From Alphaproteobacteria bacterium (GTDB taxonomy: Bacteria; Pseudomonadota; Alphaproteobacteria; Bin95), in the NCBI GenBank assembly GCA_965205265.1, contig CBDBGH010000003.1, positions 3,776,001 through 3,840,000 of the forward strand: 64,000 nt of DNA. Direction: 5' to 3'. The position numbers were made by a program, and so were the translations under genes. Under the pieces are notes generated by a model. That model was not told the origin of the DNA and did not search any database. It was given only the letters and a program-made list of their open reading frames with translations. Position 1 is the first letter of the stretch; each line of letters begins with the position of its first letter. Positions 7,343-34,331 of this stretch are shown here, piece after piece.

Positions 7343-7375
7343 TAAAACGAGAGGGGAGAGACAACGTCTCTCCCC
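7343..7375 (-). terminator. intrinsic terminator of tracrRNA
   Basis: GGGGAGAGAC-GTT-GTCTCTCCCC followed by TCTCGTTTT on the minus strand. Confidence 0.75.
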
Positions 7376-7470
7376 ATATTCGTCTGGCAGCCCTCCATGG
7401 AAAGCTGCCTTACTGTAGTTGCTACTGCAAGCAGTTGCACAGCTTTACGCCGCTGCTCTCCAAAACAGCA
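7343..7470 (-). ncRNA. tracrRNA with split anti-repeat
   Basis: Anti-repeat blocks 7458-7470 and 7412-7423, followed by AAGGC nexus, hairpin 7386-7409 and terminator hairpin 7353-7375 plus U-tract; TTGACT -35 at 7504-7499. Confidence 0.85.
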
Positions 7471-7538
7471 GCCAATGCTTGCACCAGTCCCGCGCGCAAG
7501 TCAACATATTCTCGGAATCTTGCTGTCGGGGACTTTTC

Positions 7539-10500
7539 ATGAAGGTCGGATGGGGCATCGATGTCGGCGTCGGCAGTCTCGGCTTCGCAGTCATCGAACT
7601 GGATACGGCGAACCGCCCGGCACGGCTGATCGACGGCGTTGCGCTCTTTTATCCCGCGCCCACAGGCGGGGCGGGGCGGACCCGCCACAAATCCATGCGG
7701 ACGCAATACGGCCGCCGCGCCGACCGGGTAAAGGCGTTGCGCGCGTATCTCGTTCGCCTGCTCAACCTCGGTCCCGGCTTCTCCGACACCCCTGCGGGAC
7801 GCAGTACCGAGCGTGTCCCGCTGCGGGCGAAGGGCCTTGAGAGCCGCTTGAAAGCCGGCGATCTGGCCCGCGCCATCCTGCATATCGCGAAGAACCGGGG
7901 CCAGCGCCTGACACGGGGGCTCAGGGACGACTCCAAGGCCGACGCCAAGCAACAGGAAAAGAGCGCCAGGGAACGCCAGTCCATGGCGCACACGGCCAAC
8001 ACGACAAAAAACGAACTCGCGGCGCTCGGCGAAAGGCTGGGACTCGACGGCCCCGCCCACCCCTCGCAATTGCTAATGCGCAAGGCCGGCAAGAGGAGAA
8101 CGACCCGGCTGAAGAAAGACCGGGAAGGGATGCCGGTCTTCACTCGCCCCATGATGCAGGCGGAACTGGACGCGCTGCTGGAGACTCAACAGCCTTACCA
8201 CGAAGCGCTAACGGACATGGCTTGCGAGCAACTCAGGGAGATGGTGTTCGAGGAAGCGGAGCCGAAAGCGCCGTCCATCGGCAAATGCCGCTACGGCGTC
8301 CGCGGCGCCGATGGTGAAATCGAAACGCGGCTGTCGCGCGGCAGCGACTTGTTTCAACGCAAGCGCATCTACGAGGAAGTGAACAATCTGCGTCTGATAT
8401 CGTCGCGAACGGCGGCGGAACGGCCCTTGGATATGGCGCAGCGCGACCGTCTTGCCTTCCTGTTGCTCGATGGGCAGGACCTGACTGCGGCGGGAGTGCG
8501 CACAGCGCTGGGTTTGAGGCGCGGCGCGCTGGCCGACATGACCAGTCTGGATATCCGGCGCAAAGGCAGGAAAACGGCCGGCGAACTCAAGGGCCATCCG
8601 CTTGCCGCCGCCATGAGCAAGGCGGATGCGCTCGAACAGTGGCGGGGTTTCGATGAGGAGCGGCGTGAAAAGATCGCAAGTCTTGTACGCACGGAAGACG
8701 ACCGGGACATCTTGAACACCAAATTGAAAGAGCTCGACCTGCCGCCGGACGCCATTCAGGTGCTTTCGGATGCACGCCTGCCCGCCGCCCATTCCGCCGC
8801 CGGTGCGACGGCGACCCGGAAGCTGCTGGCTGAACTGGAAGCAGAGGTCATCCCGCACGACAAAGCAGAACAGCGGGCCGGACTCGAATCTCTCGATCAG
8901 GAACCGCCAAGTCTCGATCGGTTGCCCTACTACGGGGAAGTCCTGCAAGGATGGTGCATCGGGGGAAGCGGTGCGCCCGGAGACGCCGACGAAGCCCGTC
9001 TAGGCCGCATTTCGAATCCGGTCGTCCATGTGGCACTCAACCAGCTACGCAAGACCGCCAACGATTATCTGAAGCTCTACGGCAAGCCTGCGCAAATCTG
9101 CATCGAACTGGCCCGCGACCTGAACAGGAGCGCCGAGGAGCGTGACAACGCCGAAAAGGAGAATCTCAAAAACCGTAAGGAGAACGAAGCGCATATCGAG
9201 TCTCTGGGCGCCCATAAGCGCAAGCTCAAACCCGAAGACCTGAAACGAATGAGACTCCATAGAATGCAGGGCGGGGAATGCCTGTACACGGGAGAACCGA
9301 TCTGCATGGAGCACCTTTTCGACGGGTCGGTTGAGATCGACCATATACTGCCTTACGCCACGACCGGAGACGACGGCATCCCCAATCTGGCTTTAGTGTT
9401 CAAGGAAGCCAATCAATTCAAACGCAAGAGGCCTCCTTTCGAGGCATTCAGCGGTGGATACAAGGGCAAGGACTATGAGCATATCCTCAAGCGCGCGAAG
9501 CTCCGCGGCGGGAGCGTGTATTGGCGTTTCAAAGAGGATGCCATGAAGCGTTACGAGGACCGGGAAGAATTCCAACGCAGGTTCCTCAACGATACGCGCT
9601 ACATTGCAAGAATGGCGGCGCGTTATCTGTCTTGCGTATGCAAAGACCCGGATAACGGCGTCGTCAGCCTGAATGGTCGAATCACGTCGGACCTCCGCTA
9701 CTTGTGGGGCCTCCATACCGTAATCCGAGACATAATGGTGGAGGAAGGACGGCTTGATATCGGCGATATTCTGTCCCCCAGAGACGGTGAAACTCTCGAG
9801 GAAAGGCAAGCGCGCCTCAAACGCGCCGACAAGGTACGCTGGGACCATCGGCACCACTTGCTGGACGCGGTCGTTGCCGCCTGCACAACCCGAAGCGATG
9901 TGCAGCGCCTCCAGACGCTGGCGGCGCGTGATACAGGCAACGAGAGCGCCAGAGAAATTCTGGCCCAAATTCGTTACACCGAACCGAACTTTGAGAATAT
10001 TGGCATATGTTGGCAGGATGGGTTTCGGAGGACAGTAAAGGCTTTTCTGGAAGGCTGGAGACCCGCCGAAGCGACGGACAAACCGCCCGCCACCGCCGTG
10101 GTCGTGAAGGCCGATCACGATCCGCGAGGCCAACTGCACGAAGCGACGAACTACGGCCTTATATGCGAAGTCCCGGGCGAGCGGGACAAATATGTCGCCC
10201 GGGACCATGTCTCGATTTCGGAATTGGAGGTGAAACAAATCGAGAAGCTCGGTGTGCCCGAAACCGCAATCCGGGCTGTCGAGCGAGCGAAGGAGCAGGG
10301 CGCGCGCTTCTGGTGGGGCGGACACGACCCCGTGTCTTCCCTGCGCAATAATCTGGCCCCTGATTTGGAGAAGATGCGTGCCAGGCTTCTCGAATTGATG
10401 CAGGAAGCGCCACCCGAGGCTCTGGAAAACGCGCGCACGGCCAGAGGCCAGCAAAAGGCGCGGGCGGAGTGGGCGAAAAAGCGGTACATCGTGGAAACAA

Positions 10501-10991
10501 CCGGACGCCGCCGTTTTACGCGGGTCCAGATTGTCTCCCTGCGCGTTCTCAAAGGCCCGTTGGACCCCGGCAAAAGGCCCAGACAGGCCAACCGAACGAG
10601 AGGGAACGACCGTCTGGTCTATTTCGTGAATGGCGAAGGGGACCGGGATATCGAAGTTGTTTCGACCCTGGACGCCAATACGCCGGGGTTCCAGGAACGA
10701 TGGCGCCGCGAGGGCGGGCGGCGGCTGTTCGTTCTGCGGAGGAACGATCTCGTGGAAATGGCGGTCGACCCGAAGGACCTAGCCTCGCCGCGCCGCCTCT
10801 ACCGCACGGTCTCGTTCTCCGGCTTGGATAATCCCGATCTCGAATTTGTGCCCGTCGAGGAGGCGCGCTCCGGCAGACCGCCGAAGCATGTAAGGATCAG
10901 CAACAAGAAGGGGTTCTCGGAACGCGCGCCGGCAATGGTGCTGTGCGACCCTACGGGCCGCGTGCGCTGGCGAGGCCCCCGCCTCAACTGA
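7539..10991 (+). CDS. cas9: type II-C Cas9 (1150 aa), catalytic motifs intact
   Basis: RuvC-I GIDVG, Arg-rich bridge helix, RuvC-II IELARD, HNH EIDHILP..N..N, RuvC-III HHLLDA; followed by cas1-cas2 with no csn2/cas4. Confidence 0.97.
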   Translation: MKVGWGIDVGVGSLGFAVIELDTANRPARLIDGVALFYPAPTGGAGRTRHKSMRTQYGRRADRVKALRAYLVRLLNLGPGFSDTPAGRSTERVPLRAKGLESRLKAGDLARAILHIAKNRGQRLTRGLRDDSKADAKQQEKSARERQSMAHTANTTKNELAALGERLGLDGPAHPSQLLMRKAGKRRTTRLKKDREGMPVFTRPMMQAELDALLETQQPYHEALTDMACEQLREMVFEEAEPKAPSIGKCRYGVRGADGEIETRLSRGSDLFQRKRIYEEVNNLRLISSRTAAERPLDMAQRDRLAFLLLDGQDLTAAGVRTALGLRRGALADMTSLDIRRKGRKTAGELKGHPLAAAMSKADALEQWRGFDEERREKIASLVRTEDDRDILNTKLKELDLPPDAIQVLSDARLPAAHSAAGATATRKLLAELEAEVIPHDKAEQRAGLESLDQEPPSLDRLPYYGEVLQGWCIGGSGAPGDADEARLGRISNPVVHVALNQLRKTANDYLKLYGKPAQICIELARDLNRSAEERDNAEKENLKNRKENEAHIESLGAHKRKLKPEDLKRMRLHRMQGGECLYTGEPICMEHLFDGSVEIDHILPYATTGDDGIPNLALVFKEANQFKRKRPPFEAFSGGYKGKDYEHILKRAKLRGGSVYWRFKEDAMKRYEDREEFQRRFLNDTRYIARMAARYLSCVCKDPDNGVVSLNGRITSDLRYLWGLHTVIRDIMVEEGRLDIGDILSPRDGETLEERQARLKRADKVRWDHRHHLLDAVVAACTTRSDVQRLQTLAARDTGNESAREILAQIRYTEPNFENIGICWQDGFRRTVKAFLEGWRPAEATDKPPATAVVVKADHDPRGQLHEATNYGLICEVPGERDKYVARDHVSISELEVKQIEKLGVPETAIRAVERAKEQGARFWWGGHDPVSSLRNNLAPDLEKMRARLLELMQEAPPEALENARTARGQQKARAEWAKKRYIVETTGRRRFTRVQIVSLRVLKGPLDPGKRPRQANRTRGNDRLVYFVNGEGDRDIEVVSTLDANTPGFQERWRREGGRRLFVLRRNDLVEMAVDPKDLASPRRLYRTVSFSGLDNPDLEFVPVEEARSGRPPKHVRISNKKGFSERAPAMVLCDPTGRVRWRGPRLN

Positions 10992-10993
10992 CG

Positions 10994-11920
10994 ATGTGGC
11001 GCGTCGTCGATATCGCCGACGAAAACCGCGTTCTCTCGCTGTCGAGGGGTAGCCTGAAGGTTTCCGGCGACGGCGGCGAATTGGGCCGGGTGCCGCTTTC
11101 GGACATCCAGTGCGTTCTCGTGCACGGCCATAGCGCGATGCTGTCCCTGTCGTTGGGCGCGGCGTTGGCCGAAGCGGGGATTCCCCTTGTACTGTGCGGC
11201 CGCAACCATGCGCCTGTGGCCTTGTCTTTGCCTGTGTCTGGCAATTTCGAGCAGGCAGCGCGGCTGACCGCTCAGGCATCCCTGTCCCTGCCCAGGCGCA
11301 AGCAGCTTTGGCGGCGGCTGGTCATGGCGAAAATCGCCTCGCAGGCGCGGGCGCTGGAGATTGTGGGACAGCCCGACCACATGCGCCTTGCAAGGCTTGC
11401 GAGGTCGGTGCGATCCGGCGACCCGGACAATGTGGAAGCCCGCGCCGCGCGTTTCTACTGGCGGCGGTTGATGGGTAGCGATTTCCGGCGCGACCCCAAT
11501 GGCAACGGTCTCAACGCCCATTTGAACTACGGCTATGCGGTCGTTCGCTCCGCCATGGCCCGCGCCGTGGTCGGAGCGGGCCTGGCGCCCGGGCTGGGTT
11601 TGCATCACCGCAGCCGCCTGAACGCCTTCCAACTGGTGGACGACCTGATGGAGCCGTTCCGACCTCTCGTGGACCACGTAGTCTGGCGCAACCGGGAACA
11701 CTGGACCGGGGAAGTGGACACGGCGGCCAAACGGGAATTGGCGCTGGTCGTCAACGGCGCAATGGCGACGTCGGCGGGAGCGCACACCGTCTCGCGCGTC
11801 ATGTCGATGCTGGCCCACTCCCTGGCGGAGCTTTGCACGGGAGAGGCGGCGGATTTGTCATGGCCGCTCGACTGGGGTCTTGTGGCGCAAACCGAACTCG
11901 ACTTTGCCGACCGCCCGTGA
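10994..11920 (+). CDS. cas1: type II Cas1
   Basis: MWRVVDI start, NVEARAARFYW, NAHLNYGYAVVR, GLHH, LVDDLMEPFRP. Confidence 0.97.
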   Translation: MWRVVDIADENRVLSLSRGSLKVSGDGGELGRVPLSDIQCVLVHGHSAMLSLSLGAALAEAGIPLVLCGRNHAPVALSLPVSGNFEQAARLTAQASLSLPRRKQLWRRLVMAKIASQARALEIVGQPDHMRLARLARSVRSGDPDNVEARAARFYWRRLMGSDFRRDPNGNGLNAHLNYGYAVVRSAMARAVVGAGLAPGLGLHHRSRLNAFQLVDDLMEPFRPLVDHVVWRNREHWTGEVDTAAKRELALVVNGAMATSAGAHTVSRVMSMLAHSLAELCTGEAADLSWPLDWGLVAQTELDFADRP

Positions 11921-11966
11921 GCGCAGGCTGGTCCGACAGCGCTTTCGCGGCCGGGCCGGCCTTTGG

Positions 11967-12299
11967 ATGGAGGCCGTTTCCGGTTACAGGGCGATGTGGC
12001 TTGTGGTGTGTTTCGACCTGCCCGTAGGAACGTCGAAAGAGCGGCGCGACGCGACCCGCTTTCGTCACCGCCTGCTGAACGAAGGATTCGCGATGAAGCA
12101 ATGGTCGGTCTATACTCGCTACTTCCTCACACGGGCCCAAGCGGACGCCGCCGCCGTCCGGGTCGGCGGCTTCGTGCCGCCCATGGGGAAGGTCTCGATC
12201 ATTTTCATCACCGACAAGCAATTCGGCATGGTGCGCAATTTCGAGGGCCGGGCTCCCGCCGAAACGGAGAAAAAGCCCGACCAATTGGCCCTGTTCTGA
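11967..12299 (+). CDS. cas2: Cas2
   Basis: MWLVVCFDLPV, QWSVY, ITDKQF, C-terminal QLALF. Confidence 0.96.
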   Translation: MEAVSGYRAMWLVVCFDLPVGTSKERRDATRFRHRLLNEGFAMKQWSVYTRYFLTRAQADAAAVRVGGFVPPMGKVSIIFITDKQFGMVRNFEGRAPAETEKKPDQLALF

Positions 12300-12370: not shown

Positions 12371-14310
12371 ACTGTAGCCAATGCTGTTTCGGAGAGCAAC
12401 TACAGCCTCACACAGGCTTCCCAGTGCAGTTAGTCCACTGTAGCCAATGCTGTTTCGGAGAGCAACTACAGCAGGGACATTGCCAAGCTGTTCGGCATAG
12501 CGACTGTAGCCAATGCTGTTTCGGAGAGCAACTACAGCCACGGCAATGCGCGTATCCGTGGACGTGCGACTGTAGCCAATGCTGTTTCGGAGAGCAACTA
12601 CAGCTCGTAGTAGTAGCAGTTCATTGACTTTCCTACTGTAGCCAATGCTGTTTCGGAGAGCAACTACAGCGGGGGTGCATTGGGGTCTACCCTCATCTTT
12701 ACTGTAGCCAATGCTGTTTCGGAGAGCAACTACAGCCCCTGGAGAAGGCGACCGGGTCATCTTCACACTGTAGCCAATGCTGTTTCGGAGAGCAACTACA
12801 GCAAAGCCTACGTAAGCGCCGTTGATGACGGCACTGTAGCCAATGCTGTTTCGGAGAGCAACTACAGCTACGGCAATGCGTTTGTCCACGACGATGCGAC
12901 TGTAGCCAATGCTGTTTCGGAGAGCAACTACAGCTAACGCACGCGTCTACGGATGTGCGCGGGTACTGTAGCCAATGCTGTTTCGGAGAGCAACTACAGC
13001 GCGATGAGCCGGGACCTTGCCGCGACCATCACTGTAGCCAATGCTGTTTCGGAGAGCAACTACAGCGCGTACCATGTGTCAGGATATGCCGGTGCGACTG
13101 TAGCCAATGCTGTTTCGGAGAGCAACTACAGCGCTGTTCCTTCCTTCGAGCAGATTGTCGACACTGTAGCCAATGCTGTTTCGGAGAGCAACTACAGCGA
13201 ACTCACTACCAAGCCCGCGGCGTCGATGACTGTAGCCAATGCTGTTTCGGAGAGCAACTACAGCATATACCGGACCGCCACGCTGGTCGAGATAACTGTA
13301 GCCAATGCTGTTTCGGAGAGCAACTACAGCATAGCGGCGTACGAGGTTGCGGGAGGCCTGACTGTAGCCAATGCTGTTTCGGAGAGCAACTACAGCTACG
13401 GTACGGCGCACGTCTACGGCCAGGCGACTGTAGCCAATGCTGTTTCGGAGAGCAACTACAGCCGTCAAAGGTCCCGCGCCCGGAAGCTTCGGACTGTAGC
13501 CAATGCTGTTTCGGAGAGCAACTACAGCCTACCGCCGACATAGGCATCGCCACCGGGAACTGTAGCCAATGCTGTTTCGGAGAGCAACTACAGCACGCCT
13601 ACAGTCGGCGCACCCTCGGCCGGCACTGTAGCCAATGCTGTTTCGGAGAGCAACTACAGCCCGAATGCCGCCGATGTCCGCCGGTGGTGGACTGTAGCCA
13701 ATGCTGTTTCGGAGAGCAACTCCGCCGATGTCCGCCGGTGGTGTAGCCAATGCTGTTTCGGAGGCAACTACAGCATACGAACCACTCGCCGCTCTCGCCG
13801 CAATCGGAGAGCAACTACAGCCATCCTGGCGGATGCACCGCCAACGAGCAATGCGCAACTACAGCTCAGCCATTGCACTGTAGCCAATGCTGTTTCGGAG
13901 AGCAACTACAGCGCGTTGCGCCTCTCGGCCAAGCTCGCCGAGACTGTAGCCAATGCTGTTTCGGAGAGCAACTACAGCATCGGGACTGTCGCGCTATGCG
14001 CTGGAACTGCACTGTAGCCAATGCTGTTTCGGAGAGCAACTACAGCGAGATCCGCTCAAGGGCGCGCTTGTCATGAACTGTAGCCAATGCTGTTTCGGAG
14101 AGCAACTACAGCCTAACCGTATGTCTCAATGCCGCATTCGGTACTGTAGCCAATGCTGTTTCGGAGAGCAACTACAGCATAAGCGCACCCGACGATGTCG
14201 AACGTCTCACTGTAGCCAATGCTGTTTCGGAGAGCAACTACAGCGCGGGCTCTGGTGCGGCGCGGCTTCGCGCGACTGTAGCCAATGCTGTTTCGGAGAG
14301 CAACTACAGC
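12371..14310 (-). CRISPR. type II-C CRISPR array: 27 perfect 36-bp repeats plus 4 partial ones; spacers mostly 30 bp
   Basis: Repeat GCTGTAGTTGCTCTCCGAAACAGCATTGGCTACAGT (minus strand), 66-bp period; disturbed block 13691-13876; orientation inferred from tracrRNA pairing and type II-C convention. Confidence 0.99.
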
Positions 14311-26990: not shown

Positions 26991-27783
26991 ACATATCATG
27001 CCGGAAGCCGTCATGGTGAATCGGGAAGTTCCGGTGCGGATACATCCCCACGAAAGTCTTGCCCTCTTCGAGGTAGTAGGGCGGGTCGCAGTAGAGGAAG
27101 TCCGCCGCGTGATGCGGTATCGACTCCTCGAAGCCCGCGCACTCCACGGTCAGCCCCGGCGCGCGAAACGCCTCGACCTTCTCCACCGTCTTCCCGTAAC
27201 GATCCGGTGCCAGATACACATCGGACGGCCAGCCGAGGAAATGCGGCCCGTAGGAGGTGTTCGAGTTGAAGTAGTAGTGAGCGGCGAGGTCGTAGCGGTT
27301 CAACGCCTCCCCGCGCTTCCAGTGCGCTTCCAGCCGGGCTTTGACGGCGGCGAAGGTGGGCCGATCCGGCGTGAAGGCCCGGAGCCGCTTCGCCAGTGCG
27401 GCCGGGCGCTGCAACTGCTCTTGCCAGTAGGCGCAGAGAATGTCGAAGACATCGTAGGCCGCGACCGGCAGTTCGAGTTCGCGGGCAAGAGCGATCTCGA
27501 CGGAGCCGCCGCCCATGAAAGGCGACGCGACGCGCTCCACGACATCGGGCATGAGTTCCACGACCATGCCGACGGCGAGGCTCTTGCCGCCCGCGTAGCG
27601 CAGCGGCGAGGCCAGATACCGCTTGTAGTCCAGCTTGCCGGTGCTGCGCAGCCGGTCGAGGAAACGCGCCTTGCGGAGGTGCAGGGGATGGCGGCCGTCC
27701 TCCATCCATCCCTCATTCAGCAGGCGGCGGGCGAGGGCTTCCGCGCTTAGGTCGGTCGGCGGAATGACCGTTTGCAGCGCCAT
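26989..27783 (-). pseudogene. Dam-like (D12 class) N6-adenine methyltransferase, probably C-terminally truncated
   Basis: SPLRYAGGKS, SPFMGGGSV, YCDPPY; stops about 26 aa after DPPY without the usual downstream LSYN-type motif. Confidence 0.75.
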
Positions 27784-27784
27784 G

Positions 27785-28750
27785 TCAGCTTCGAGCGCCG
27801 GAGGACAGGCCGTTGTCCGCAATCAAGTCGCTGTAAAGGAGGCGCTTGCCGACCATGCCAGCGGCGAGCGCCGCCATCATGTCCGCCGTGTCCATGTCGC
27901 GGAGATTGTGGCGCGTCGAGAATTCATCGACATACCGCTGAAGGTGCTTATGCGAAAACTTGTGAAAGGTTCCGGCGTAGGCCCGCTTCAACATCGACCA
28001 GAAGCTTTCCATCCCGTTCGTGTGCGCCTGCCCGCGCACATACTCGGCAACCGAGTGATTGACCGCCTCGTGATCGAATTCGGGCATTCCCTTGTAGGCG
28101 GCCGCTTCGTCCGTATAGAGGGTGGCGCCGGGCTGCACATTGTCCCGGACGAAGCGTTGCAGGTCGTCCGCCTTCGTCGCTTCCATGACGCGGGCCGCGA
28201 CCTTGTTGCTGTCCCGGTCCTTCACACCGGCCACGGCGGCTTTGCCGACCGTGCCCCGGCCCGTCCCGGCAAGCTCCTTCCGCTTCCGGTTGCTCATGTT
28301 CTTCCGTTTGCCTCCAAAGTAGGTTTCGTCCGCCTCGGCAGGGCCGAAGAACCCGCCCGGCTCGCCCATCATGGCTTCCCGGATGCGGTGCGCCATGAAC
28401 CATGCGCTCTTCTGCGTAATGCCAAGGTCGCGGTGCAGCTTCATCGACGACACGCCTTTGAGGCTTGTCACGCTCAAGTAGATGGCGATGACCCACTTGC
28501 GCAGCGGAATCTTCGACCGCTCCATCGCCGTGCCGGTGCGGACCGTGAACCGACGGCGGCAACCGCCGCACCAAAAGGTCAAGCCCTTCTGCGTCGTCTC
28601 GGTGTTACCGCAACGCGGGCAGAAACGGCCGGTGCGGCCCCAGCGCATATCCGCGAACCAGTCATGGGCGCTTTCCTCGGTCGGGAACATCTCCACAACC
28701 TGCAAGAGCGTGATGCCTTCGCGGTGTGCCTTACCCGGTGCTTTCGCCAT
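27785..28750 (-). CDS. IS1595-family transposase
   Basis: CPRCG/CGGC zinc ribbon, KGVSSMKLHRDLGITQKSAW HTH, EADETY, YTDE, HTNGMESFWS, YVDEF. Confidence 0.95.
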   Translation of the reverse strand: MAKAPGKAHREGITLLQVVEMFPTEESAHDWFADMRWGRTGRFCPRCGNTETTQKGLTFWCGGCRRRFTVRTGTAMERSKIPLRKWVIAIYLSVTSLKGVSSMKLHRDLGITQKSAWFMAHRIREAMMGEPGGFFGPAEADETYFGGKRKNMSNRKRKELAGTGRGTVGKAAVAGVKDRDSNKVAARVMEATKADDLQRFVRDNVQPGATLYTDEAAAYKGMPEFDHEAVNHSVAEYVRGQAHTNGMESFWSMLKRAYAGTFHKFSHKHLQRYVDEFSTRHNLRDMDTADMMAALAAGMVGKRLLYSDLIADNGLSSGARS

Positions 28751-28773
28751 AGTGGATCCTCCCTGTAAGGATG

Positions 28774-28815
28774 AATATAGGCGCTCCGGTTTGCGCCGTC
28801 AAGTATATAATCCCC
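28774..28815 (-). promoter_or_regulatory. IS1595 end with transposase promoter
   Basis: GGGGATTATATAC candidate terminal repeat ending at 28815, then TTGACG-17 bp-TATATT and GGGAGG RBS; partner repeat not seen in the window. Confidence 0.6.
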
Positions 28816-28964
28816 TATCGTTAGACATGGTTGTCGAACAAGTAGCGTAACCGGCCGGAATGTCCAACCTGTCATTCGTCGCCGGCGACAGGACGGGCGG
28901 GGCTTTTCCGACTACTATCTGCAATGGAAATCCGCGGACCCGTTTTTTCAGGCCTGAAAGTCCA

Positions 28965-31465: not shown

Positions 31466-31738
31466 CGGTGACGCCCAACCAACCGATATCCCGCGATCGT
31501 GCATTGTTGTTCCGCATCACGCATGTTCGGAACCTTCCGTGGCTGCTGCGCAATGGCCTTTATGCAGCCTCCGGCCTCCGAGACCCTGATTTCGTGTCAA
31601 TCGGAAATCCGGATCTCATTGAGAAACGTGAACGACGAGTGGTCCCCACTCCGCCCGGTGGCACCCTCGATGACTACGTGCCGTTTTATTTCACCCCCTA
31701 TTCGCCGATGCAGCTAAACATCCTTTCTGGCCGAGGCG
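31462..31738 (+). pseudogene. darT: darT 5' part (DNA ADP-ribosyltransferase toxin), interrupted
   Basis: FRITHVRNLPWLLRNGL, DYVPFYFTPYSPM motifs; homology ends at LSGRG. Confidence 0.88.
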
Positions 31739-31739
31739 A

Positions 31740-32222
31740 TCGTGCATTCATTCTGCCCATGTCGGGCAGGACTGCGTCATCCATTACCCGTGGCATGCCC
31801 ATTTCGGCCGCCGTGTCCGCCTTGAAGTTATCGAACAGCGTGCCGACGGCCTCATGGCCTCTGTCGAGGTAGAGCCCGGGCTGGTCATCAAGATTCCCGC
31901 CTGGTCGCTCGATCCTGCGTCATGCGCCGGCATGGAGATCGGCGCGCCGCGTGTATCCCTGGCCGCTCTTGCCGCGCTTCACGAGGTTCTCGTCGGCCAG
32001 GGTTTTAGACGAAGCTCCTCCGCTGACGGGACGGTTAGTGAGGAGGAGCTCAATGAAGTCTTTGGCTGTACCGGCGAGGCCGCCGGGCGAGTTCCGACAG
32101 CTCAGCATGCTGTTGGACACACCGGCGCTGCGTGGCCTGAACCGGGAGGAACGCGACGCGGTCGTGGGCGCGCTGGCCGGGCTGCTTCTGGAAGCGGCGG
32201 ATTTCGCGGTGAAGGAGGATGA
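31740..32222 (+). CDS. accessory ORF of the recombinase element, open to the left end and lacking its own 5' start
   Basis: Frame SCIHSAHVGQDCVIHYPWHAHFGRRV...IPAWSLDPASC; RBS and ATG lie at the far right end of the element (34312). Confidence 0.6.
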   Translation, partial: SCIHSAHVGQDCVIHYPWHAHFGRRVRLEVIEQRADGLMASVEVEPGLVIKIPAWSLDPASCAGMEIGAPRVSLAALAALHEVLVGQGFRRSSSADGTVSEEELNEVFGCTGEAAGRVPTAQHAVGHTGAAWPEPGGTRRGRGRAGRAASGSGGFRGEGG

Positions 32223-32238
32223 CGATGAGCACCTCTGA
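32053..32238 (+). CDS. small protein of the recombinase element (61 aa)
   Basis: AGGAGGAG RBS; MKSLAVPARPPGEFRQLSMLLD...LAGLLLEAA; overlaps the recombinase start. Confidence 0.7.
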   Translation: MKSLAVPARPPGEFRQLSMLLDTPALRGLNREERDAVVGALAGLLLEAADFAVKEDDDEHL

Positions 32239-34297
32239 TGCGTTGCCGCGATCGGTGTTGACGCGCAAGGCCGTGGTTTATGTCCGTCAGTCCACGCCCC
32301 AGCAGATGCGGAACAATCTCGAGAGCCAGCGCCGCCAATACGATCTCGTCAACGTGGCGCGCGGGCACGGTTTCGCCCGGGTTGAGGTCATCGACGAAGA
32401 TCTGGGCCTGTCGGCGAGTGGCGCCATCGCACGGCCGGGTTTCGAGCGTCTCGTCGCCTGGCTGTGTGCCGGGGACGTCGGAGCGGTACTTTGCTTCGAG
32501 GCGTCTCGCATCTCCCGCAACGGCCGGGACTGGCACCATCTGCTCGAGCTCTGCGGTCTCGTGGAGGCCCGCGTCATCGACCTGGATGGCATCTATGATC
32601 CTCGCCACCCAAACGACCGCTTGCTGCTCGGACTTAAGGGCCAGATCAGTGAGTTCGAACTCGGCGTTCTCCGCGCACGGATGCTCGACGCCGCCCGATC
32701 CAAGGCAGCGCGCGGCGAGCTTCGCATCAGCGTCCCGATCGGTTACGTGTGGCATCCCCAAGGCGGGCTGGGGCTGGATCCTGACATTCGGGTTCAGGAA
32801 GCGATCCGTCAGATATTCGCCCGATTTCGCGAGCTGGGCAGCGCGCGGCAGGTCCTGTTGACGCTGGTCGAGCAGCAGCATTGCTTCCCGCGCCCGTCAG
32901 ATGGCAGGACAACGGTTAGCTTCGACTGGACGCCGATCCGCTATCGCAATGTGATTTCGGTATTGAAGAACCCCTTCTACGCTGGTGTCTATGCCTACGG
33001 CAAAAGCGAACAACGAACCGAGATCGTCGACGGGCGGGTGCACAAAAGCTATGGCCACCGGAGACCGATGGCGGAATGGGAGGTCATGCTGAAGGACCAT
33101 CACGAGGGCTACATCGATTGGGCGGAGTTCGAGCGCAACCAGGCGCAACTCGCCGCCAACGCCTTCGGCTGGTCCGGCGGCGCGAAGTCCGGGCGCGGCG
33201 GACGGGCGCTGCTGAGCGGACTTCTCAGCTGTGGGCGCTGCGGCCGCTCAATGTCAGTCGCCTATGCTGGGCAATCACCGGGCAATCCTGTTTATTTCTG
33301 CAACCGGCAACACCTCCAGCTCGGGCTCGATCGCTGTCTGAGGTTCGGCGGCGCGCGTGTGGATGCCGCCATTGCCGATGAGATCATCGGGGTCGTCGAG
33401 CCCTTGGCCGTGGAAGCCTCCTTGAAGGCCGAGCGGGTGAAGGTGGAGGGCCTGAGCGAACAACAGCGAGTGGCCGAGCTGGACCTGCAGCAAGCCCGCT
33501 ACGAAGCATCACTCGCCGAGCGGCGCTATGCCGCCTGCGATCCGGACAACCGGTTGATTGCCGCCGAGCTGGAGAAGAGTTGGGAGGCGGCGCTTCGCCG
33601 CGTCCAGGTGTGCGAAGCGCGGCTGGAGGCAATGCGGTCGCCGTCACCGCAGCCCTCGGGACCGGATCTGGCCGGGCTTGCCGATGACCTGAAGGCAGCC
33701 TGGAACGCGCCGGGGGTGAGCATGCGTGCCCGCCAGCGGCTCGTACGCACCCTGATCGCCGGCATCGTCGCCGATGTCGACGAGGAAGCGCGCGAAGTCC
33801 TGCTGACGATCCACTGGGTCGGTGGCCGCCATTCCCGATTGCGGGTTCGAAAGCCCAGAACCGGTGAACATGGCTGCCGAACGCCCGAGGAAGCGCTGGC
33901 GGTGATACGCAGCATGGCCGGGCGGTGGTCGGACGAACATATCGCTGCGTCTCTCAACCGGATGGGCATGCGGACCGGCCAGCACAAGAGCTGGACCGGC
34001 AAGCGGGTCGGATCGATCCGTCGCGTGAACGGGATCGACGGCTATCTCTCAGCGGACAAGCAGGGCGATTGGTACACCATGACCGAGGCGGCGAACGAGT
34101 TGGGCACCACCAGCCATACGCTCAGGCGCCTCATCGAGGATGGAACGCTACCCGCCACGCAGCTCGTTCCCCGAGCGCCTTGGCAGATCAGAGCCGCGGA
34201 CCTCCATTCAGAGAGCGTTGCTCACGCCCTGGCACAAAGGAAAGGCCCGCGTCGCACTTCATGCCGGGATCAGATGTCAATGTTTTCAGATAGTTGA
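32225..34297 (+). CDS. large serine recombinase with zinc ribbon, coiled coil and C-terminal HTH
   Basis: VYVRQST catalytic Ser motif, DEDLGLS, SRISRN, LSCGRCG. Confidence 0.95.
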   Translation: MSTSDALPRSVLTRKAVVYVRQSTPQQMRNNLESQRRQYDLVNVARGHGFARVEVIDEDLGLSASGAIARPGFERLVAWLCAGDVGAVLCFEASRISRNGRDWHHLLELCGLVEARVIDLDGIYDPRHPNDRLLLGLKGQISEFELGVLRARMLDAARSKAARGELRISVPIGYVWHPQGGLGLDPDIRVQEAIRQIFARFRELGSARQVLLTLVEQQHCFPRPSDGRTTVSFDWTPIRYRNVISVLKNPFYAGVYAYGKSEQRTEIVDGRVHKSYGHRRPMAEWEVMLKDHHEGYIDWAEFERNQAQLAANAFGWSGGAKSGRGGRALLSGLLSCGRCGRSMSVAYAGQSPGNPVYFCNRQHLQLGLDRCLRFGGARVDAAIADEIIGVVEPLAVEASLKAERVKVEGLSEQQRVAELDLQQARYEASLAERRYAACDPDNRLIAAELEKSWEAALRRVQVCEARLEAMRSPSPQPSGPDLAGLADDLKAAWNAPGVSMRARQRLVRTLIAGIVADVDEEAREVLLTIHWVGGRHSRLRVRKPRTGEHGCRTPEEALAVIRSMAGRWSDEHIAASLNRMGMRTGQHKSWTGKRVGSIRRVNGIDGYLSADKQGDWYTMTEAANELGTTSHTLRRLIEDGTLPATQLVPRAPWQIRAADLHSESVAHALAQRKGPRRTSCRDQMSMFSDS

Positions 34298-34331
34298 AGA
34301 GGGGGTGCAGAATGACTCCATCGTCGCGGCG

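What the first reader, a model, noticed from the sequence alone, without database searches (positions are those of the whole stretch)
12539..13426. Several independent spacers target the same hexapeptide-repeat gene family
Seen: on the + strand spacer 3 (12539) encodes HGNARIRGRA, spacer 8 (12869) YGNAFVHDDA, spacer 9 (12935) NARVYGCAR and spacer 16 (13397) YGTAHVYGQA; spacer 11 (HVSGYA) is a weaker match. All fit the [YH]G[ND]AxV hexapeptide repeat, lie on the same strand, and three share the same register (YACGG...GCG). Established: such repeats form left-handed beta-helices and occur in phage proteins. Inference: 4 of about 28 spacers hitting one repeat type suggests an acquisition hotspot (recurring PAM, priming-like re-acquisition) or an arms race with a variable repeat gene.
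Basis: partly seen in the sequence, partly recalled or inferred. Interest (0 to 1): 0.7.

Follow-up and report, generated by a model that had tools for sequence, protein, structure and literature searches.

The report
Spacers phased on phage repeat gene
An otherwise ordinary Cas9-type CRISPR array holds several memories that read, in the same frame and phase, like pieces of one phage gene family built from six-residue repeats, probably because every repeat unit offers the Cas9 recognition motif at the same spot.

Summary
Window 12371-14310 is a type II-C CRISPR array (36-nt repeat, 30-nt spacers) behind cas9-cas1-cas2. A second, longer copy lies elsewhere on the same contig; the two copies give 54 distinct spacers.

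Five of the 54 fit x-[GD]-x-A-x-[VIL]-x-[GD]-x-A completely. All five are on the + strand, in the same frame and phase. Random 30-mers fit at 0.16% (P about 3e-8).

A weight matrix built from 1013 units of the family singles out A9, A8, A16 and A3 (p <= 0.001). B7 scores 0.0017; spacers 11 and 2 are weak.

The family is Pfam PF18836 (YdcK beta-solenoid repeat; phrog_5070/7964, function unknown). It sits in phage replication modules and was not found in this genome.

Four of the five strong spacers share strand and offset within the 18-nt unit (P about 1e-4). This fits PAM-fixed acquisition, where each unit offers one site.

No protospacer was found in any collection, so the target gene, the PAM and the hotspot remain inferred. 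An I-G-type array in the same genome also holds one such spacer. The array is ordinary; the phased spacer bias is a modest curiosity.

The parts
7345..7480 (-). tracrRNA candidate: anti-repeat in two blocks split by about 30 nt, then an AAGG-led hairpin and a terminator
   Evidence: Read directly. The - strand resembles the + strand repeat (15/16 and 11/12), so it is complementary to a - strand transcript of the array. Terminator-like hairpin 7375-7353 on the - strand. No Rfam match.
7539..10991 (+). cas9 (1150 aa), type II-C-like
   Evidence: phmmer against PDB chains: 36 Cas9 sequences at E <= 1e-10, best 2.6e-45; only the central part aligns. ORF.
10943..11920 (+). cas1
   Evidence: PF01867 match at G000:C3:3787015-3787692, which is window 11015-11692, E 1.5e-28. 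ORF.
11963..12299 (+). cas2 (start uncertain: 11880 or 11963)
   Evidence: ORF. The identical second copy matches annotated cas2 and cas1 of alphaproteobacterial plasmids.
12371..14310 (-). CRISPR array copy A: 28 repeats of 36 nt, 26 clean spacers; crRNA inferred to be read from the - strand
   Evidence: Orientation follows from the tracrRNA candidate.
12473..12502 (+). spacer A2, RDIAKLFGIA: fits the template 5/5 in the common register but is weak by the weight matrix
   Evidence: 5/5; p 0.018. Private to copy A.
12539..12568 (+). spacer A3, HGNARIRGRA: YdcK-repeat-like, common register
   Evidence: 5/5; p 0.0007. Its bases 2-14 occur in the repeats of many family loci. Private to copy A.
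12605..12634 (+). spacer A4: not repeat-like; overlaps a spacer of the I-G-type array of the same genome
   Evidence: 30-nt overlap with 1 mismatch to the spacer at C3:3410501.
12869..12898 (+). spacer A8, YGNAFVHDDA: YdcK-repeat-like, common register
   Evidence: 5/5; p 2.5e-5. 26/30 to AP1 and to L055. Shared with copy B.
12935..12964 (+). spacer A9, NARVYGCAR in frame 2: YdcK-repeat-like, different register (5 nt off)
   Evidence: p 2.5e-5. The peptide is found verbatim in an IMG/VR family protein.
13067..13096 (+). spacer A11, AYHVSGYAGA: weak match, another register
   Evidence: p 0.018. HVSGYA occurs in the IMG/VR family protein.
13397..13426 (+). spacer A16, YGTAHVYGQA: YdcK-repeat-like, common register
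   Evidence: 5/5; p 0.00015.
13529..13558 (-). spacer A18, reverse strand PGGDAYVGG: borderline match on the opposite strand
   Evidence: 4 of 5; p 0.0032.
13691..13876 (.). scrambled stretch of the array: broken repeats and fragments of spacers that are intact in copy B
   Evidence: by comparison with B24-B29.

Best explanation
**What it is.** The array is a working-type II-C CRISPR memory. Its crRNAs are read from the - strand. About one in ten of its spacers was taken from phage genes of the YdcK beta-solenoid repeat family (PF18836; phrog_5070/7964). These are accessory genes of unknown function in phage replication and recombination modules.

**How the bias arises (inferred).**
- In type II systems Cas9 picks protospacers at a fixed distance from its PAM.
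- These genes are tandem 18-nt units with strongly conserved codons.
- If the conserved codons spell a motif that this Cas9 accepts, every unit offers one acquisition-competent site, always on the same strand and at the same offset.
- A few hundred bases of such a gene would then hold many more usable sites than ordinary phage DNA.
- It would be sampled again and again, in register.

**Shown.**
- The array, its orientation signals, the family likeness of the spacers, the common register and the excess over chance.
- Such spacers are spread along the array and occur in both copies, including each copy's private block at the cas2 end.

**Inferred.**
- That the real protospacers lie in such genes.
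- That the PAM lies in the conserved A-x-V codons 5' of the + strand spacer.
- That site density rather than selection causes the excess.
For: - **Template.** Met 5/5 by 5 of 54 distinct spacers, all on the + strand in one frame and phase. Random own-genome 30-mers meet it at 0.156% and prophage-like flanks at 0.157%.
- **Weight matrix.** 4 of 54 spacers at p <= 0.001.
- **Family identity.** A phage AP1 ORF with the same repeats scores PF18836 at E 1.9e-37, phrog_7964 at 1.4e-77 and phrog_5070 at 7e-61.
- **DNA-level likeness.** Spacer A8 is 26/30 in register to AP1 and to L055.
- **Phage context.** The gene sits next to a Sak4-like annealing protein, DNA polymerase, exonuclease and Gp2.5-like SSB in three alphaproteobacterial loci.
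- **Absent from the host.** No PF18836 match in the own genome; 1 of 37 genomes of the order has one.
- **Register.** 4 of 5 strong spacers share strand and offset (P about 1e-4).
- **Conserved flank.** At 848 in-register sites of 70 family loci, the flank on the PAM side is strongly conserved: S-A-C-C-Y-R-N-G-C-R-T-Y-G-C-C in crRNA orientation.
- **No general strand bias.** 30 of 54 spacers are called + sense overall, and 28 of 47 without the repeat-like ones. The common strand is therefore particular to these spacers.
- **Comparison with other arrays.** 6 of 54 in this array family reach p <= 0.01, against 1 of 83 distinct spacers in the genome's other six arrays (Fisher 0.015).
- **Cas9's role.** The abstract start of PMC12477760, seen in the listing, says that Cas9 selects spacers from PAM-flanked DNA in type II systems.
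Against: - **No protospacer found.** Searched: phage records, plasmids, IMG/VR, JGI metagenomes, 61 relatives and the 37 genomes of the order, and 70 family loci. The target gene is therefore inferred from 9-10 residue translations.
- **PAM unknown.** The conserved flank bases fall at positions 2-4 and 8-9. This is not where I recall II-C PAMs (N4 followed by about four bases) to lie.
- **Other registers.** A9, A11 and a similar spacer in a congener's array sit in other registers.
- **Another CRISPR type.** An I-G-type array with a different PAM need also holds one such spacer, at its probable leader end.
- **Weak contrast.** The difference from the other arrays is weak at the stricter cut (4/54 against 1/83, p 0.079).
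- **Codon usage.** By host codon usage only 2 of the 7 repeat-like spacers are called + sense. The target's codon usage must therefore differ from the host's.
Confidence: 0.5

Rival explanations
1. Arms race with a variable repeat gene. The phage escapes by mutating, deleting or reshuffling repeat units, which a solenoid tolerates. The host therefore has to take new spacers from the same gene again and again. Selection, not site density, keeps them.
For: - Repeat-like spacers are spread through the array: A2, A3, A8, A9, A11, A16.
- They also occur in the private cas2-proximal blocks of both copies: A2/A3 in copy A, B7 in copy B.
- One sits at the probable leader end of the I-G-type array.
- The spacers differ from each other at 10 or more of 30 bases, so none can stand in for another.
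- The genome keeps variant spacer pairs from single sites elsewhere: A6/B40 with 2 mismatches, and a pair in the I-G-type array.
Against: - No target sequence is known, so neither escape nor unit turnover is shown.
- The repeat-like spacers are far more diverged from each other than the known variant pairs. They look like different units or genes, not successive versions of one site.
- Selection alone does not explain the common register.
Confidence: 0.15
2. Regional hotspot. The gene lies in a part of the phage genome that is over-sampled for reasons of DNA metabolism. Possible causes are the first-injected end, the replication origin, or free ends left by an earlier cut by Cas9 or by the type I system. 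The repeat gene is simply the recognisable part of that region.
For: - In three alphaproteobacterial loci the gene sits inside the replication and recombination module.
- Two other sites are hit by overlapping spacers of the II-C and the I-G-type arrays: A4 and B39. This shows that the two systems sample a small common sequence space.
- Hotspots at free DNA ends and near Cas9 cuts are described for type II-A. This is recalled; I only saw the title phrase cited in the papers listed.
Against: - It does not predict one strand and one offset, although a PAM would still impose these.
- Neighbouring genes cannot be recognised among the other spacers, so the prediction is untested.
- The four I-C-like arrays (46 distinct spacers) hold no such spacer.
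Confidence: 0.15
3. No hotspot. Many different phages and prophages that meet this host carry a YdcK-type gene. Each contributed a spacer by ordinary random sampling.
For: - The family is widespread: 70 loci from many phyla were found with one query.
- The spacers are mutually diverged.
- A congener's array holds one similar spacer among 14 (read by eye).
Against: - The repeat part is only about 0.6% of a phage genome. This is my estimate for AP1: roughly 330 nt of 55655.
- 4-7 of 54 spacers is therefore a 10-20-fold excess however many phages contribute.
- Random sampling does not give one register.
Confidence: 0.12
4. Chance. GC-rich DNA is rich in Gly, Ala and Val codons and happens to mimic the repeat.
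For: In random own-genome 30-mers, a 4-of-5 template match occurs at 4.4%.
Against: - Full matches occur at 0.156% in the genome and 0.157% in prophage-like flanks. Five in 54 gives P about 3e-8.
- The weight matrix, which also uses the non-template positions, gives four spacers at p <= 0.001.
- All share one strand.
Confidence: 0.02

Closest known systems
Type II-C CRISPR-Cas of Neisseria meningitidis (Nme1Cas9/Nme2Cas9 loci)
   Same: - cas9-cas1-cas2 followed directly by the array.
- 36-nt repeats and 30-nt spacers.
- A tracrRNA next to cas9.
- crRNA read against the direction of the cas genes.
- The nearest solved Cas9 structures include entries I recall as Nme Cas9; the table gives no organism.
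   Different: - Cas9 is distant: only residues 490-728 align well.
- The anti-repeat of the tracrRNA candidate is split by about 30 nt.
- The PAM is unknown.
- Repeat-internal promoters, known for Neisseria (recalled), were not tested here.
PAM-guided spacer selection by Cas9 in type II adaptation
   Same: A fixed distance between PAM and spacer would give the single strand and offset seen for four of the five strong spacers. The role of Cas9 is stated in the abstract start of PMC12477760 (listing).
   Different: That work concerns type II-A. Here the PAM is not known, and the periodic-gene consequence is my inference.
Pfam PF18836 YdcK beta-solenoid repeat; PHROG families 5070 and 7964 (function unknown)
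   Same: Hexad V-[SYF]-G-[DN]-A-[RWQE] in 1013 units of 71 loci. The spacers translate to one and a half such units.
   Different: The spacers are only 30 nt, too short for the Pfam model itself. Several carry unusual residues at the variable positions (His, Cys, Thr, Phe). I found no paper on the phage family: terms 'YdcK' and 'phage', returned 4 papers, none on it judging by title and abstract start.
Known spacer-acquisition hotspots (free DNA ends, Chi-bounded regions, first-injected end, Cas9-cut sites)
   Same: A small part of the invader contributes far more spacers than its length predicts.
   Different: Those hotspots are regional and cover both strands. This one is tied to a coding repeat and to one phase. 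The literature is recalled, not read here. One search (terms protospacer, hotspot, spacer acquisition, type II-C) listed 8 papers, none of which by title concerns repeat genes.

Membership tests
Type II-C CRISPR-Cas | cas9, cas1 and cas2 with no fourth adaptation gene (csn2 or cas4) before the array | tested here: met
   ORFs 7539-10991, 10943-11920 and 11963-12299; the array starts at 12371. Cas9 confirmed, Cas1. There is no room for another gene between cas2 and the array. No family scan for csn2 or cas4 was run.
Type II-C CRISPR-Cas | tracrRNA with an anti-repeat complementary to the crRNA repeat | tested here: met
   Read by eye; terminator found. No Rfam hit.
Type II-C CRISPR-Cas | 36-nt repeats with about 30-nt spacers | tested here: met
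Targets are genes of PF18836 (YdcK beta-solenoid repeat) | Spacer translations fit the hexad V-[SYF]-G-[DN]-A-x beyond chance | tested here: met
   Strong for A8, A9, A16 and A3; moderate for B7; weak for A11 and A2.
Targets are genes of PF18836 (YdcK beta-solenoid repeat) | The Pfam model itself scores the sequence | not testable with these tools
   The family scan needs 20 residues; a spacer gives 9-10.
Targets are genes of PF18836 (YdcK beta-solenoid repeat) | A matching protospacer lies inside such a gene | tested here: inconclusive
   No protospacer found anywhere. The best full-length matches are 26/30, to family genes of unrelated hosts.
PAM-determined acquisition hotspot | A common motif flanks the protospacers at a fixed distance | not testable with these tools
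   No protospacer flank is known. Only the family consensus flank could be computed.
PAM-determined acquisition hotspot | Spacers from the region share strand and offset | tested here: met
   4 of 5 strong spacers share both (5 of 7 if the weak ones are counted); P about 1e-4.

The most novel reading that the evidence does not exclude
The phage solenoid-repeat gene is a CRISPR lightning rod. Its 18-nt units each carry a PAM, so it soaks up a large share of new spacers. Because a solenoid tolerates loss, gain or exchange of units, the phage can shed any targeted unit by recombination between units at little cost. The gene would then work as a decoy that blunts CRISPR memory. The phased, mutually diverged spacers in three arrays of this genome would be the scars of that contest.
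Probability: 0.1. Interest if true: 0.7.

Novelty: new member of a known kind. Interest (0 to 1): 0.4.

Why it matters
If the inference holds, the content of a CRISPR memory is shaped by the fine structure of invader genes as well as by which invaders are met. A coding tandem repeat that spells the PAM once per unit becomes a predictable, phased hotspot.

This would give a sequence-only way to predict a Cas9's PAM from its own array. It would also flag a widespread phage gene family of unknown function as a preferred target of two CRISPR types.

It also matters for reading spacer catalogues. Several spacers against one gene family need not mean several encounters or special selection.

Tried and rejected
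**Protospacer searches, all negative**
- Whole array A against 50,697 phage records: 12 records at E up to 10, all chance-level. The only informative one was the family match in phage AP1.
- The I-G-type array against phages: no match.
- Array copy B with flanks against plasmids: only cas1/cas2 homologues and chance matches.
- A congener's array against phages and plasmids: nothing usable.
- IMG/VR, all 8 scans:
  - Spacer A8 exact.
  - Peptide-level degenerate patterns for A16, A8, A3 and B7.
  - The I-G-type solenoid spacer.
  - A variant spacer pair of the I-G-type array.
  - The A9 pattern gave the only hit: a 38% GC contig that shares the peptide but not the DNA.
- JGI metagenomes: A8 pattern, 0 hits.
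- These scans find only exact or synonymous matches, so a protospacer with other mismatches would be missed.
- Arrays against 61 relatives and the 37 genomes of the order: only related arrays and chance matches of 21-28 nt, checked.
- All 82 spacers against 70 family loci: no near-exact match.

**Related arrays**
- Repeat-family pattern in genome contigs: 0 hits. One search had a wrong N count; two searches were correct. The pattern could not match G049.
- Same pattern in metagenomes: 0 hits.
- Same pattern in 401 genomes of the class: 2 hits, the own genome and G049.
- Whether homologous arrays share the bias therefore rests on two arrays. G011 has 1 of 14 by eye; G049 has 0 of 19.

**Other attempts**
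- An exact 5-mer count against family ORFs was too noisy, and circular for A9.
- Positional base composition of the spacers showed no end bias that could reveal a PAM.
- Overlaps between spacers of different arrays gave flanks only on the side away from the inferred PAM.
- RNA targeting as the cause of the common strand is rejected: there is no overall sense bias.
- Earlier notes of this scan held nothing on the subject.

**Sequencing runs**
- Two runs hold most of the array as short contigs.
- Two others hold the cas2 flank up to the first repeat, with no differences in the pieces listed, but give no cover over most spacers. That proves nothing.
- The runs did not settle whether the two array copies are two loci or two variants in one culture.

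Full report
**What is there.** Window 12371-14310 is a CRISPR array of 28 copies of a 36-nt repeat with 30-nt spacers. One spacer is 32 nt, and 13691-13876 is a scrambled stretch. Directly upstream on the + strand lie three genes:
- cas9 (7539-10991; 36 Cas9 chains of the PDB at E <= 1e-10);
- cas1 (PF01867 at window 11015-11692);
- cas2 (ends at 12299).

There is no room for a fourth gene, so the layout is type II-C.

**Orientation.** Between 7480 and 7345 the - strand carries two blocks that resemble the + strand repeat (15/16 and 11/12), split by about 30 nt. An AAGG-led hairpin and a terminator-like hairpin at 7375-7353 follow. I read this as the tracrRNA. It implies that crRNAs are - strand transcripts, so the PAM lies 5' of each spacer as written on the + strand. 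No Rfam family matched.

**A second copy.** The genome holds the same locus again, inverted, at C3:5432428-5463552. This copy runs to the very end of the contig. Its array has 49 repeats.
- The copies share spacers A5-A20 and the last three.
- They differ in private blocks at the cas2 end (4 spacers against 7).
- They differ in an internal block (A: the scrambled stretch plus 3 private spacers; B: 21 private spacers).
- Together they give 54 distinct spacers.
- Whether they are two loci or two variants in one culture is open.

Template test, x[GD]xAx[VIL]x[GD]xA scored over all six frames and six phases:
- Five of 54 spacers fit completely: A2, A3, A8, A16 and B7 of the second copy.
- All five are on the + strand, in frame 1 and in the same phase.
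- Random 30-mers fit at 0.156% in the own genome and at 0.157% in the flanks of 8 GC-rich prophage-like loci.
- The binomial P is about 3e-8.

Weight matrix, from 1013 repeat units of 71 loci, using all six positions:

| Spacer | p |
|---|---|
| A9 | 2.5e-5 |
| A8 | 2.5e-5 |
| A16 | 1.5e-4 |
| A3 | 7e-4 |
| B7 | 0.0017 |
| A18 (opposite strand) | 0.003 |
| A11 | 0.018 |
| A2 | 0.018 |

So four spacers are strong, one moderate and three weak.

**The gene family.** A chance-level hit of spacer A8 in Acidovorax phage AP1 led to an ORF made of VYG[DN]Ax units. The record annotates the opposite strand there.
- The ORF scores Pfam PF18836 (YdcK beta-solenoid repeat) at 1.9e-37, phrog_7964 at 1.4e-77 and phrog_5070 at 7e-61. 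Both PHROG families are of unknown function.
- A8 aligns 26/30 in register with this gene and with a Pseudoxanthomonas member.
- A3's bases 2-14 recur in the repeats of many members.
- An IMG/VR protein of the family contains NARVYGCARV and HVSGYA verbatim.
- In three alphaproteobacterial loci the gene lies among a Sak4-like annealing protein, DNA polymerase, exonuclease and SSB genes.
- PF18836 was not found in the own genome. It was found in 1 of the 37 genomes of the order.
- I found no paper on the phage family (4 papers listed, none on it by title and abstract start).

**Register and strand.** Four of the five strong spacers start at the first base of the codon after Val (P about 1e-4 for sharing one of 36 strand-offset classes).
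- A9 is 5 nt off. A11, and a similar spacer in a congener's array, are 6 nt off.
- Codon-usage calls show no general sense bias among the spacers: 30 of 54 overall, and 28 of 47 without the repeat-like ones. The common strand is therefore particular to these spacers and does not point to RNA targeting.
- At 848 in-register sites of 70 family loci, the flank on the inferred PAM side reads S-A-C-C-Y-R-N-G-C-R-T-Y-G-C-C. Conserved bases do lie there.
- Their positions (2-4 and 8-9) are not where I recall II-C PAMs to sit.

**Other arrays of the genome.** The genome has six further arrays and five cas1 genes.
- Four I-C-like arrays (46 distinct spacers): no such spacer.
- A second type II-like array (10 spacers): no such spacer.
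- An I-G-type array (27 spacers): one such spacer, HAQVYGIARVC on its reverse strand, next to the probable leader.
- The contrast with this array family is 6/54 against 1/83 at p <= 0.01 (Fisher 0.015). At p <= 0.001 it is 4/54 against 1/83 (Fisher 0.079).
- Two other sites are covered by overlapping spacers of the II-C and I-G-type arrays: A4, and B39 of the second copy. Both systems therefore record a small common set of invaders.

**What could not be done.** No protospacer was found in phage records, plasmids, IMG/VR, JGI metagenomes, relatives or family loci.
- The collection scans see only exact or synonymous matches.
- The PAM, the identity of the targets and the number of phages involved are therefore inferred.
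- Related arrays are rare: 2 of 401 genomes of the class, counting the own genome.

**Reading.**
- Most likely (about 0.5): Cas9-guided, PAM-fixed acquisition meets a gene whose 18-nt units each spell an acceptable motif. The gene then offers a dense, phased row of sites and is sampled repeatedly.
- The repeat part of such a gene is about 0.6% of a phage genome. This is my estimate for AP1, against 7-13% of these spacers. A PAM of four or five fixed bases would suffice for that excess. That last step is arithmetic, not a tool result.
- Rivals: an arms race with a variable gene, a regional hotspot in the replication module or near earlier cuts, and plain abundance of the family among the host's phages. 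None is excluded.
- Chance is excluded.

**Verdict.** The array is an ordinary member of type II-C. The phased bias of its spacers toward one phage repeat family is real and unusual, but explicable by known rules.

Noticed in passing
window 1-28820 (G000:C3:3774960-3804820) against C3:5432428-5463552: About 30 kb including the whole cas locus is present twice, inverted, at 99.7% identity outside the array. The second copy runs exactly to the contig end. This could be a real duplication, or a second population variant attached by the assembler.
   Followed up: partly
window 13691-13876: Scrambled stretch of the array: truncated repeats and fragments of spacers that are intact in copy B (B24, B26, B27, B29). 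It looks like a collapsed or noisy consensus rather than biology.
   Followed up: partly
window 12605-12634; G000:C3:3410501-3410535; copy B spacer at C3:5447568-5447597 and C3:3411739-3411776: Two protospacer sites are covered by overlapping spacers of the II-C array and of an I-G-type array with a different repeat and 35-38-nt spacers. One of them spans a ribosome-binding site and a start codon followed by a run of Tyr codons, and the run is one codon longer in the I-G-type spacer than in A4. The overlap could reflect a small shared invader pool or cross-talk in adaptation.
   Followed up: partly
window 7411-7478, - strand: The anti-repeat of the tracrRNA candidate is interrupted by about 30 nt that contain a small palindrome. 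This is unusual for a tracrRNA if real.
   Followed up: no
G000:C3, arrays at 3251047, 3254297, 3410098, 4047013, 4049306, 5123326; cas1 at 3408494, 4045507, 5124728: Besides the two II-C copies, the genome carries four I-C-like arrays, one I-G-type array next to a 643-aa open frame holding Cas1, and a second type II-like array with a different 36-nt repeat. There are five Cas1 matches in all.
   Followed up: partly
L012 2648-3208 (Acidovorax phage AP1, OM049504.1 3222-3782): The deposited CDS (a protein of VDPRIA repeats) is on the strand opposite to a 254-aa ORF that scores PF18836 at 1.9e-37 and phrog_7964 at 1.4e-77. This is probably a wrong-strand annotation.
   Followed up: yes
copy B spacers at C3:5449548-5449577 and 5447502-5447531; C3:3410863 and 3411960; duplicated spacers at C3:5448558-5448653, 3411593-3411702 and 3412108-3412284: The arrays hold variant pairs taken from one site (2 mismatches in the II-C pair) and exact tandem duplicates of spacers (up to three copies in the I-G-type array).
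   Followed up: no
window 26996-28820 and 31723-34327: Two multi-copy elements with 99.9-100% identical copies elsewhere on the chromosome (two further copies of the first and four of the second), probably insertion sequences. The first marks the end of the duplicated block.
   Followed up: no
L015 (G011, same genus), ninth spacer of its array: A congener's related II-C array (repeat differing at 6 of 36 positions) holds one spacer, among 14, that translates to AALVFGNATQ on the corresponding strand. It is a YdcK-type unit in a third register.
   Followed up: partly
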